A DNA stretch of 64,000 nt from the human T2T-CHM13v2.0 reference genome, Homo sapiens (GCF_009914755.1 NC_060935.1); one strand, 5' to 3'. Shown: positions 50,653 to 52,229, counted from the stretch's first letter. Notes: generated by a model not told the origin, from the sequence alone. Numbers and translations: made by a program.

Positions 50653-50716
50653 AAGGTACTGTTATTTTTATTAATCTTGTATGTCATTATAGTACTCTTT
50701 TAAAACGCTAGTACCC

Positions 50717-51331
50717 GGCCAGGCACTGTGGCTCCTGCCTGTAATCTCAGCACTTTGGGAGGCTGAGGCGGGTGGATCACAAGGTAAGGAGATCAAGACC
50801 AATTTGGCTAACACGGTATAACCCCCTCTCTACTAAAAATACAAAAAAATTAGCTGGGCGTGGTGGCGGGAGCCTGTAGTCCCAGCTACTCTGGAGGCTG
50901 AGGCAGGAGAATGGCGTGAACCCGGGAGGAGGAGCTTGCAGTGGGCCGAGATTGCGCCACTGTACTCCAGCCTGGGCAGCTGAGCGAGACTCCATCTCAA
51001 AAAAAAAAAAAAAAGAATAAATAAAAAAGTATAATTAGATTTTTTTTGTAACACGAAGAAAGGATGAATGCTTGATGTGATGGTTACATCATTTACCCTG
51101 ATGTGATTATTATACATTACATGCCTGTATCAAAACATCATGGCCGGGCACGGTGGCTCACGCCTGTAATCCCAGCACTTTGGGAGGCCGAGGCGGGCGG
51201 ATCACGAGGTCAGGAGATCGAGACCATCCTGTCCCACATGGTGAAAGCCCATCTCTACTAAAAATACAAAAATTAGCTAGGTGCGGTGGGACACGCCTGT
51301 AATCTCAAAAAAAAAAAAAAAAAAAAAAAAA
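50717..51331 (+). mobile_element. Composite insertion: AluY (50717-51014) + L1 spacer (51015-51141) + partial Alu (51142-51306) + poly(A) (51307-51331); copy of 10449-11053
   Basis: The spacer and the diagnostic accatcctgtcccacatggtgaaagccc are shared with the 10.4-11.1 kb locus. TSD-like aaaacgctagtacc (50702-50715) and aaaaagctggtacc (51327-51340). Confidence 0.9.
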
Positions 51332-52229
51332 GCTGGTACCTATACGCAAGTGTATCAGCAATAGATGAGTGGACCTGTTTCCCTATATTCCCCTTCTAGT
51401 GTTAGTTTTAATTATTTGTGATTTGTTTGGTGGTTCACTGGATATAAAGGAATACCTTATGGATTTTCATTAAGAAAATTAATGAAAAATTAATAAAAAG
51501 CTAAATATTAAATATTGGCTTGCATTTTGGTTTCTTCTTGACTGATTGCTTGATCACTGGGTTTCTATTTCTTTGGTTCCCACTAGGTATTGTATAAGCT
51601 TAAAAATTATCCTCTGGTATTTTGAGTTTACTCCCCCTTTTGAAAGGACTTTTTGTTTTAATCTCTGTACTTCATGTCATTGCTCCTCTATTGTCTGGAT
51701 CTTAACGGCCCCCCAGCCCCATTATTGAGAACTGTATTTACAGCAAGCCCCTTAAAAACAAATTTTATGTTTGTTTTTACAATATACAGTTAATTTCTTA
51801 GTGTCATCAGCTATAAATGGAGTTATGAGAAATAAGTGAAAATTGTTCAATAAATATTTCAGTGCCTGTGAAGTGCCAGGCTCAAAAATGTTTAAGAACT
51901 GCCTGGCACATATGAGATCCTCTGTAAAAGTAGTAGCCATTGTGATGTACCATAAAGTTTACTTTTCATAATTTGGGAGGCAGTAGCATGATGGAAATAG
52001 GGTGGCATTTGTGTGTTCTTCCCTAGCCACTTCCCTACTGTGTTACCTGGATCAGTTACTGTCTCTCCAGCTCAGATTATTTGTAAAAGATGATATAACT
52101 TACAATACAAGATTGTGAGGGTCAAATGCAAATGTGTGAATACATTTGGTAAAGCAAAGTACAGATGCTAAAACCCTTAAAAAACAATCTTTTCTTAGCA
52201 CCTTCCTTTGCAAATATAGATTGCATTAT

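What the first reader, a model, noticed from the sequence alone, without database searches (positions are those of the whole stretch)
50702..51340. AluY + flank + partial Alu copied 40 kb downstream with its own poly(A) and TSDs: candidate Alu 3' transduction or Alu-Alu templated duplication
Seen: 50717-51306 is colinear with 10449-11053, in the order AluY, A-tail, ~125-bp L1 spacer (aagtataattagatttt...gcctgtatcaaaacatcat), then a second Alu. Both second Alus carry the same non-consensus accatcctgTCCcacatggtgaaaGccc, and both first Alus share cTgag at the usual gacagag. The 10.4-kb copy is the donor: its spacer is continuous with L1 on both sides, and its AluY has TSD AAGAATAA(A/G)TA. The 50.7-kb copy breaks off early in the second Alu's right arm and ends in a new ~25-nt poly(A). 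It is flanked by AAAA(C/A)GCT(A/G)GTACC repeats at a TTTT/AAAA L1-endonuclease site. A 13-bp tandem duplication in the donor (10660-10685) is absent from the copy, so it is later. Known: 3' transduction is common for L1 and SVA but rare for Alu, because Pol III stops at T-runs. Here both copies carry a T8-9 run ~25 bp after the tail, yet the copy extends ~260 bp past it. Inference: this is terminator read-through, retrotransposition of a Pol II (e.g. LRP5 read-through) RNA, or DNA-level conversion into a pre-existing Alu. Retrotransposition would identify a once-active AluY source element with a local daughter.
Basis: partly seen in the sequence, partly recalled or inferred. Interest (0 to 1): 0.8.

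Follow-up and report, generated by a model that had tools for sequence, protein, structure and literature searches.

The report
Local DNA patch beside old Alu
A roughly 300-base piece of a repeat cluster was copied 40 kb downstream into the tail of an older, unrelated Alu, so this is an ordinary local copying event and not the rare Alu 3' transduction first proposed.

Summary
The colinearity of 50717-51306 with 10449-11054 is real, but identity along it is uneven. The first Alu pair is 84.4% identical (44/282 mismatches). Each ranks only 9th or 15th of 46 among the other's window relatives. They share no more private changes than independent Alus would. A true copy does exist. The A-run, L1 3' piece and first 134 bp of the second Alu (51015-51275) are 95.7% identical to 10766-11023. 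They share 15 derived L1 states and 5 derived Alu states. The L1-Alu junction spans only these two loci among the genome candidates scored. The last 31 bp (51276-51306) match the donor at only 23/31. The Alu at 50717 carries 28/281 private changes against 4/255 on the copy's lineage (p=3e-5), so it was resident before the patch arrived. The TSDs and endonuclease site belong to that resident Alu. Alu 3' transduction is not supported. Best reading: a patch placed at the Alu body/A-tail boundary, most likely by DNA-templated break repair primed by Alu or A-tail homology (about 0.55). An L1-mediated retrocopy into the tail is second (about 0.2). Interest is low.

The parts
50702..50715 (+). 5' copy of the target-site duplication (AAAACGCTAGTACC), preceded by TT. 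It is the L1-endonuclease-type TT/AAAA site of the resident Alu.
   Evidence: Read directly. It matches 51327-51340 at 12 of 14 positions.
50717..50998 (+). Resident full-length AluY/Sc-like element (Alu1'). It is older than the patch and is not a copy of the donor's first Alu.
   Evidence: It is 84.4% identical to 10449-10747. The donor Alu ranks 9th of 46 among its window relatives. All 39 other scored genome Alus are closer, at 89-91%. It has 28/281 private changes, against 4/255 on the patch's daughter lineage, p=3e-5.
50999..51014 (+). A16 run. This is the left junction zone, where the resident Alu meets the patch. The donor has A18 at 10748-10765.
51015..51141 (+). Copied L1 3'-end piece. 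It starts exactly at the homologue of the donor Alu's 3' TSD (GAATAAATA) and contains the T8 run at 51040-51047.
   Evidence: It shares 15 derived states with the donor against 15 other L1 copies. In the 141-nt genome search the donor scores 92% and the next-best hit 85%. It keeps the ancestral CACGAAGAAAGG where the donor has a 4-bp deletion.
51142..51275 (+). Copy of positions 1-134 of the donor's second Alu (10890-11023).
   Evidence: The whole tract 51015-51275 is 246 matches, 11 mismatches and 2 gaps against the donor. Five derived states are shared over the 165 compared positions (four of them inside this part), and one change private to the daughter lies in this part. The L1-Alu junction is spanned only by the two window loci among the 40 scored of 3663 candidates.
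51276..51306 (+). Alu-like end piece of uncertain source (start of a right arm). It reads ...AATCTC and then runs into the A-run. ATCTC plus A-run also ends the resident Alu at 50994-50998.
   Evidence: It matches the donor at only 23/31, against 95.7% for the tract, Fisher p=1.5e-4. Twenty-three other Alu pieces in the window match its first 29 bases (51276-51304) better than the donor does. There are 534 genome matches at 3 or fewer mismatches, none at 1.
51307..51331 (+). A25 run. It is either the resident Alu's original tail (DNA-repair reading) or partly a new poly(A) (retrocopy reading).
   Evidence: No common poly(A) hexamer lies 10-35 nt upstream; the nearest is AATACA, 38 nt away.
51327..51340 (+). 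3' copy of the target-site duplication (AAAAAGCTGGTACC).
10449..10747 (+). The donor locus's first Alu (Alu1), with a private 13-bp tandem duplication at 10660-10685. Its TSD is at 10438-10448 and 10764-10774.
   Evidence: It has 22/281 private changes. Its best other genome match is 88%.
10748..11054 (+). Donor template: A18, the 3' TSD copy, the L1 3' piece with T9 at 10791-10799, and the first 165 bp of Alu2. Alu2 runs on to 11166 and has an A18 tail at 11168-11185.
   Evidence: The L1 continues on both sides of the two Alus.

Best explanation
The structure arose in two steps.

Step 1. An AluY/Sc-type element (50717-50998) inserted by ordinary L1-mediated retrotransposition at a TT/AAAA site. 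This made the 14-bp TSD and an A-tail.

Step 2. Much later, about 290-310 bp was placed at the boundary between that Alu's body and its A-tail. The inserted stretch was copied from the L1/Alu cluster 40 kb upstream on the same strand. It comprises an A-run, the L1 piece that follows the donor's first Alu, and the first 134 bp of the donor's second Alu, plus a 31-bp Alu-like end piece.

The most likely route is DNA-level break repair. A break near the 3' end or A-tail of the resident Alu is followed by invasion of the upstream Alu or its A-tail through Alu/A-run homology. About 300 nt is synthesised past the end of the homology. The new strand is then released and joined to the other broken end at a very short microhomology (ATC/TCTC-A). 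This is repair begun by homology and finished by end joining.

Shown: the resident Alu is independent and older, the patch is a local copy, and the direction is donor to daughter. Inferred: DNA rather than RNA as the template, the position of the break, and the joining mode.

I put the two-step origin at about 0.85 and the DNA-templated route at about 0.55. The confidence given for this field is that of the whole statement, DNA route included.
For: The first Alus are independent.
- 44/282 mismatches, against 16/275 for spacer plus second Alu, p=2e-4.
- Mutual ranks are 15th and 9th of 46.
- Neither has a close relative anywhere in the genome. The best matches are 91% and 88%, so there was no recent whole-Alu conversion.
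- They share 2 private states, against about 4.9 same-column coincidences expected by chance.

The resident Alu is older than the patch.
- 28/281 private changes against 4/255 on the daughter lineage of the tract, p=3e-5.
- Against Alu2' positions 1-134 alone (1/134), p=1.5e-4.
- It is also more diverged than both donor Alus, which predate the copy (22/281 and 11/165).

The patch is a local copy.
- 95.7% identity.
- 15 shared derived L1 states and 5 shared derived Alu states.
- The junction is spanned only by these two loci among the scored candidates.
- The daughter keeps ancestral states that the donor has lost.

Points favouring DNA over RNA.
- Donor and copy lie 40 kb apart on one strand. 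An RNA copy should land anywhere in 3.1 Gb (inference).
- No poly(A) signal lies 10-35 nt before the A25 run.
- The T8-9 run rules out a Pol III transcript.
- Every retrotransposition hallmark at the site (TSD, endonuclease motif, A-run) is already accounted for by the resident Alu.
- ATCTC plus A-run occurs at both 50994 and 51302. A join at ATC microhomology with the resident Alu's own terminus would produce this.
- The substitutions clustered in the last 31 bp would fit error-prone repair synthesis or a further template switch. That expectation comes from my own recall of the repair literature.
Against: - No outgroup genome could be consulted, so the intermediate state (Alu with plain tail) is predicted, not seen.
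- The age test assumes the 28 private changes arose after insertion. On non-CpG sites alone it is weaker (12/231 against 5/251, p=0.08).
- Reported Alu-Alu gene conversion acts mostly within about 10 kb (passage in PMC8230782). Here the distance is 40 kb.
- Invasion would have to tolerate about 84% identity (82% over the last 60 bp).
- No stretch of the resident Alu's 3' end is visibly converted to the donor's sequence.
- A pure A25 run on a 10%-diverged Alu is on the long side. Only 3 of the other 45 window Alus have pure runs of 23 or more. That would fit a younger poly(A).
Confidence: 0.55

Rival explanations
1. Two steps, but with an RNA intermediate. A polyadenylated Pol II transcript of the donor region (for example LRP5 read-through) was reverse-transcribed by L1 ORF2p at a nick in the resident Alu's A-tail. 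This would be a class 1 templated-insertion-type retrocopy. The cDNA stopped where it reached the donor Alu's A-tail and joined the resident tail by A/T microhomology. Its own TSD would then consist only of A's and would be invisible.
For: - The patch ends in a long pure A25 run.
- The left boundary coincides with the donor Alu's A-tail and TSD, as A-run microhomology would give.
- L1-mediated insertion of polyadenylated intergenic fragments is a described class (PMC5110952, abstract and passages).
- The donor lies 4.3-4.9 kb downstream of the LRP5 3' end on the same strand (hub annotation).
Against: - There is no poly(A) hexamer within 10-35 nt of the breakpoint in donor or daughter. The nearest, AATACA, is 38 nt away. 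The class is defined by a signal 10-30 nt upstream.
- The donor has no A-rich stretch at 11054 for internal priming.
- Landing 40 kb from the source in the same orientation is very improbable for an RNA copy (inference).
- No separate TSD can be shown.
- Nothing in this model explains the cluster of 8/31 mismatches at the end where reverse transcription would start.
Confidence: 0.2
2. One-step chimeric retrocopy. L1 reverse transcriptase began on a polyadenylated donor-locus RNA. At the donor Alu's A-tail it switched template onto an unrelated Alu RNA and copied that to its 5' end. This would give TSD, full-length Alu, A-run, L1 piece, poly(A), TSD in a single insertion, like the published Alu/LINE-1 chimeras.
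For: - The architecture matches: a full-length sense Alu lies 5' of a 5'-truncated L1 3' piece, with one TSD pair, a TT/AAAA site and a terminal A-run.
- Law and Burns describe 113 such Alu/LINE-1 chimeras in the human genome (bioRxiv 10.1101/2025.02.02.635956, sections 23 and 31 read).
Against: - The Alu should be as young as the patch. It has 28/281 private changes against 4/255, p=3e-5. It is also more diverged than the two donor Alus that predate the copy.
- No source Alu above 91% identity exists among the scored genome candidates.
- The L1 part comes from a dead, Alu-interrupted L1 rather than an active one, and it ends inside an Alu rather than at the L1 3' end.
- The same poly(A)-signal and locality problems apply as for the RNA two-step model.
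Confidence: 0.07
3. This is a true Alu 3' transduction: a transcript starting at the donor's first Alu read through into the flank and was retrotransposed. One of the two first Alus was later overwritten by gene conversion.
For: - The structures are colinear, and the left boundary of the L1 piece falls at the donor Alu's TSD.
- There is a single TSD pair and a terminal A-run.
- One non-consensus state is shared (cTgag).
Against: - The first Alus are 84.4% identical and are not each other's nearest relatives.
- They share no more private states than chance would give.
- Both are old, and neither has a close relative that could have converted it.
- A T9/T8 Pol III terminator lies 25 nt into the flank.
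- A screen of 118,489 full-length AluY elements in this same assembly confirmed no Alu transduction (bioRxiv 10.1101/2024.04.29.591526, abstract and results section read).
Confidence: 0.03

Closest known systems
Ectopic (non-allelic) Alu-Alu gene conversion, and break repair started by homologous invasion and finished by end joining (coupled homologous/non-homologous repair; templated insertions)
   Same: A nearby Alu in cis serves as the entry point. A stretch of the donor is copied without loss from the donor. One junction lies in homology (Alu or A-run) and the other at a few bases of microhomology. Alu gene conversion among neighbouring Alus is documented (PMC8230782, passages).
   Different: The copied tract runs out of the Alu into non-homologous flank and into a second Alu, so the result is a net insertion of about 300 bp and not a replacement. 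The distance is 40 kb, against the reported range of about 10 kb. No converted stretch is visible inside the resident Alu. The coupled-repair mechanism is cited from my own recall and comes from no call.
Templated sequence insertion polymorphisms (TSIPs), classes 1 and 2 (Onozawa and Aplan; PMC5110952)
   Same: A short patch templated from elsewhere in the genome is inserted at a break or nick. Intergenic sequences can serve as templates.
   Different: Class 1 needs its own TSD and a poly(A) signal 10-30 nt before the tail. Here the signal is absent and a separate TSD cannot be seen. Class 2 patches are described as coming from distant regions and as probably RNA-derived (passages in PMC5110952). 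Here the donor is 40 kb away and entry is through repeat homology. This event is also fixed and old, and is not a polymorphism as far as tested.
Alu/LINE-1 chimeric insertions (Law and Burns 2025 preprint)
   Same: A full-length sense Alu is followed by a 5'-truncated L1 3' piece within one TSD pair at an endonuclease motif.
   Different: The parts are not contemporaneous. The L1 piece derives from a dead L1 nearby, carries a nested Alu and does not reach the L1 3' end.
L1/SVA-type 3' transduction applied to Alu
   Same: The flank downstream of a retroelement reappears elsewhere next to an element of the same family.
   Different: The accompanying Alu is not a copy of the source Alu. A Pol III terminator lies inside the flank. 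No confirmed case exists in this assembly according to the 2024 preprint.

Membership tests
Alu 3' transduction | The daughter Alu is a copy of the source Alu and shares its private mutations. | tested here: not met
   84.4% identity. Ranks are 9th and 15th of 46. Only 2 private states are shared, against about 4.9 same-column coincidences expected by chance.
Alu 3' transduction | The transduced segment is the source's immediate 3' flank. | tested here: met
   The L1 piece starts at the donor Alu's 3' TSD and is 95.7% identical over the tract.
Alu 3' transduction | The transcript is compatible with Pol III: no run of four or more T inside the segment, and a terminator at its end. | tested here: not met
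   T9 lies at 10791-10799 and T8 at 51040-51047, inside the segment. No T-run lies at the donor breakpoint 11054.
Alu/LINE-1 chimeric insertion | A sense, full-length Alu lies 5' of a 5'-truncated L1, inside one TSD pair, with an endonuclease motif and a poly(A). | tested here: met
   Read. The TSD matches at 12/14 and the site is TT/AAAA.
Alu/LINE-1 chimeric insertion | Both parts arrived at the same time. | tested here: not met
   28/281 private changes against 4/255, p=3e-5. This is by divergence only. Presence or absence in other primates was not testable.
Class 1 templated insertion (L1-mediated retrocopy of a polyadenylated fragment) | A poly(A) signal lies 10-30 nt upstream of a non-templated A-run. 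| tested here: not met
   Only AATACA (38 nt) and ACTAAA (44 nt) lie upstream of the breakpoint.
Class 1 templated insertion (L1-mediated retrocopy of a polyadenylated fragment) | Its own TSD of at least 5 bp at a TTTT/A site. | tested here: inconclusive
   If the insertion was into the A-tail, the TSD would consist only of A's and could not be distinguished.
Homology-initiated ectopic repair / gene conversion with end joining | There is homology between recipient and donor at the entry junction, and the donor is retained. | tested here: met
   An Alu plus A-run is present at both loci. The pair is 84.4% identical, with A16 and A18 runs. The donor is intact.
Homology-initiated ectopic repair / gene conversion with end joining | The exit junction has no homology or only microhomology. 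| tested here: inconclusive
   ATCTC plus A-run occurs both at the resident Alu's end and at the patch's end. This is compatible with a 3-nt ATC join, but a single C-to-T change would give the same result.
Homology-initiated ectopic repair / gene conversion with end joining | The intermediate state (recipient Alu without the patch) exists in an outgroup. | not testable with these tools
   No primate genome other than the window's own assembly was available.

The most novel reading that the evidence does not exclude
The Alu and the patch entered together as one retrocopy. L1 reverse transcriptase started on a non-canonically adenylated RNA from the dead L1/Alu cluster 40 kb upstream. It then jumped, at the A-tail of the cluster's first Alu, onto an unrelated Alu RNA. 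That would make this a homology-guided Alu-headed chimera built from a non-L1-competent template and landing next to its source. It would be a route by which Alus could carry foreign flank without Pol III read-through.
Probability: 0.07. Interest if true: 0.55.

Novelty: new member of a known kind. Interest (0 to 1): 0.25.

Why it matters
Mainly as a caution. A structure with every outward hallmark of an Alu 3' transduction (Alu, flank, poly(A), one TSD pair, endonuclease site) turns out to be a resident Alu plus a later local patch. The only genome-wide screen found reports no confirmed Alu transduction in this assembly, so a real case would have been notable. This is not one.

If the DNA-repair reading holds, the locus is a clean, datable germline example of homology-started, end-joined ectopic copying between Alus 40 kb apart. 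My estimate for the event is roughly 10-35 Myr ago, from 11 substitutions in about 257 bp. The rate calibration is my own and comes from no call. Such events would be annotated simply as Alu/L1/Alu mosaics and are probably under-counted.

Tried and rejected
- Earlier findings of this scan could not be opened.
- A gradient of similarity along the first Alu that would reveal a conversion tract: none. The last 60 bp are 49/60 identical and the rest 189/222.
- The shared cTgag as a marker of common descent: rejected as within chance.
- A source for the odd 31-bp end piece. In the window the best matches have 4 mismatches of 29, at 23788(-), 50623(-) and 53506(-), against 7 for the donor. A 32-mer window search found only itself at 3 or fewer mismatches. 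The genome gave 534 matches at 3 or fewer mismatches and none at 1. No source was identified.
- Other daughters of the spacer-Alu junction genome-wide: none among the 40 scored of 3663 candidates or the 40 scored of 1144. Unscored candidates remain unseen.
- A-tail length as a dating aid: uninformative. Pure runs of 23-34 also occur on 3 other window Alus.
- An ADAR-type A-to-G excess in the daughter as a sign of an RNA intermediate: not seen. Daughter-lineage changes in the L1 part are 2 A>G and 1 T>C. The A>G excess is in the donor.
- A later internal deletion of a complete second Alu between AATCCCA and GTCTCAAAA: considered. It cannot be excluded, but it needs an extra event.
- Reverse order (patch first, Alu later): rejected. 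The Alu has no TSD of its own against the patch and is the older part.

Full report
**What is there**

At 10449-11054 and at 50717-51306 the order is: an Alu, an A-run, about 125 bp of L1 3' end, then a second Alu.

The 10.4-kb copy sits inside a continuous L1 3' end. In an alignment with 15 other genomic L1 copies, L1 sequence runs up to the first Alu, resumes after it, and resumes again after the second Alu. The first Alu has the TSD AAGAATAAATA / AAGAATAAGTA. This locus is therefore the donor.

The 50.7-kb structure is flanked by AAAACGCTAGTACC (50702-50715) and AAAAAGCTGGTACC (51327-51340), which match at 12 of 14 positions, at a TT/AAAA site. It ends in an A25 run (51307-51331). No homology other than Alus extends beyond 50717 or 51307.

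**Identity along the structure is uneven**

Segment by segment:
- First Alu pair: 238/282 identical (84.4%), with 3 gap events.
- L1 spacer: 107/110 (97.3%).
- Shared part of the second Alu: 152/165 (92.1%).

The first pair against spacer plus second Alu (44/282 against 16/275 mismatches) gives Fisher p=2e-4.

Among 46 near-full-length Alus of the window plus the partial second Alu, the two first Alus rank only 15th and 9th of 46 in each other's similarity lists. The two second Alus are each other's best match.

Genome-wide, all 39 other scored Alus are 89-91% identical to the Alu at 50717, and the donor's first Alu is not among them. The donor's first Alu has no match above 88%.

I polarised changes against the majority state of 20 genomic near neighbours:
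- The Alu at 50717 has 28/281 private changes.
- The donor's first Alu has 22/281.
- They share two.

A simulation that respects CpG and non-CpG columns expects about 4.9 same-column coincidences for unrelated Alus. T occurs at that site in 2 of 48 other Alus examined. The first Alu at 50.7 kb is therefore not a copy of the donor's first Alu. The 13-bp duplication in the donor says nothing about timing.

**What really was copied**

From the G of GAATAAATA (51015) to position 134 of the second Alu (51275), the daughter matches 10766-11023 with 246 matches, 11 mismatches and 2 gaps, which is 95.7%.

In the L1 part the two share 15 derived states against the majority of 15 other L1 copies. In the second Alu they share 5 derived states, including TGTCCCACATGGTGAAAGCCC.

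In the genome search of the 141-nt A-run plus L1 piece (51010-51150), the donor scores 92% and the next-best L1 85%. That search scored 40 of 1144 candidates. Only the two window loci span the L1-Alu junction among the 40 scored of 3663 candidates.

The daughter keeps ancestral states that the donor later lost:
- CACGAAGAAAGG, where the donor has a 4-bp deletion.
- AA, where the donor has GG at 10775-10776.
- A at the TSD position, where the donor's 3' copy has G.

The left edge of the L1 piece coincides with the start of the donor Alu's 3' TSD. The donor's first Alu, or at least its A-tail, was therefore very probably part of the template.

**An odd end piece**

The last 31 bp before the A25 run (51276-51306) match the donor at only 23/31. 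This is significantly worse than the tract (p=1.5e-4). Six of the seven daughter-only changes of the second Alu fall here.

Twenty-three other Alu pieces in the window match the first 29 bases of this piece (51276-51304) better than the donor does. Genome-wide there are 534 matches at 3 or fewer mismatches, mostly left-arm-like or decayed right-arm starts, and none stands out.

The piece may have been copied with many errors, copied from a third Alu after a template switch, or altered later. I could not decide among these.

**Order of events**

On the daughter lineage the high-identity tract has 4 substitutions in about 255 bp: 3 in the L1 part and 1 in Alu positions 1-134. The adjacent Alu has 28/281, giving p=3e-5. 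Against Alu positions 1-134 alone (1/134), p=1.5e-4.

If the odd end piece is counted in, the comparison is 28/281 against 9/277, p=0.002. On non-CpG sites alone it weakens to p=0.08.

The Alu at 50717 is also more diverged than both donor Alus, which must predate the copy. It was therefore resident before the patch arrived. The TSD pair, the endonuclease site and an A-tail are most simply its own. This removes all independent evidence that the patch itself was retrotransposed.

**Mechanism**

A Pol III read-through transcript is excluded for two reasons. The first Alus are unrelated, and a T9/T8 terminator lies inside the copied stretch.

An L1-mediated retrocopy of a Pol II RNA into the resident A-tail remains possible, but it has three problems:
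- It needs a polyadenylated RNA ending at the equivalent of 11054. No common poly(A) hexamer lies within 10-35 nt there (AATACA is 38 nt away), and the donor has no A-rich stretch at that point.
- It needs the copy to land 40 kb from its source.
- It leaves the error cluster at the 3' end unexplained.

A DNA-level route needs fewer coincidences. The steps would be:
- A break at the resident Alu's 3' end or tail.
- Invasion of the upstream Alu or its A-run in cis.
- Synthesis through the A-run, the L1 piece and part of the next Alu.
- End joining to the other broken end.

ATCTC followed by the A-run occurs both at the resident Alu's terminus (50994-50998) and at the patch's end (51302-51306). 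The donor reads ATCCCAGC there. A join at ATC microhomology with the resident terminus would produce this, but so would one C-to-T change. The coupling of homologous invasion with end joining, and error-prone repair synthesis, are cited from my own recall and were not checked in a paper here.

Points against the DNA route:
- Alu gene conversion is reported to act mostly within about 10 kb (PMC8230782, passage).
- The homology is only about 84%.
- No converted tract is visible inside the resident Alu.

**Comparison with the literature**

- Halabian et al. (bioRxiv 10.1101/2024.04.29.591526; abstract and results section read) screened 118,489 full-length AluY elements in T2T-CHM13 and confirmed no Alu-mediated transduction. 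This locus does not change that.
[quoted passage not shown] Those require contemporaneous parts, which the divergence test here does not support.
- Onozawa and Aplan's review of templated sequence insertions (PMC5110952; abstract and passages) gives the two nearest described classes. The patch meets neither definition cleanly.
- The supplementary tables of the two preprints were not available, so I cannot say whether this locus is listed in them.

**Verdict**

The transduction interpretation is not supported.

My odds:
- Two-step origin: about 0.85.
  - DNA-templated break repair: about 0.55.
  - L1-mediated retrocopy into the tail: about 0.2.
- One-step template-switch chimera: about 0.07.
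- True transduction followed by whole-Alu conversion: about 0.03.
- Anything else takes the remainder.

This is an ordinary kind of repeat-mediated local rearrangement and its interest is low. The decisive test is the state of the orthologous site in other primates, which these tools could not reach.

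Noticed in passing
window 10772-10776 and 10864: All four donor-lineage substitutions in the L1 piece since the copy are A-to-G on the + strand. Three of them lie within 5 nt, right after the first Alu's A-tail (AAATAAA became AAGTAGG). This may be transcription-associated strand asymmetry downstream of LRP5 or a local mutational cluster.
   Followed up: partly
window 10660-10685: A perfect 13-bp tandem duplication (AGGAGGCAGAGCT x2) lies inside the donor's first Alu. It is private to that Alu.
   Followed up: yes
window 51276-51306: There is a cluster of 8 mismatches in 31 bp at the 3' end of the patch. 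Six of the daughter-only changes fall here, against one in the preceding 134 bp of the same Alu. The source or cause is unresolved.
   Followed up: partly
window 50582-50652 (- strand): An antisense Alu left-arm fragment ends about 50 bp upstream of the target site. It is preceded by a short (CA)n/(AG)n-like stretch at 50556-50585. Its 29-mer is among the three best window matches (4 mismatches) to the odd end piece.
   Followed up: partly
window 10806 (donor) vs 51055-51058: The donor's 4-bp deletion in CACAAAGAAAGG also occurs independently in 2 of the 15 other L1 copies aligned (L006, L012). It is a recurrent slippage site.
   Followed up: no
window 9521-9814 (- strand): An Alu just upstream of the donor cluster matches the resident Alu at 50717 better (87.1% over 295 bp) than the donor's first Alu does. 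This is ordinary subfamily similarity and is useful as a control.
   Followed up: yes
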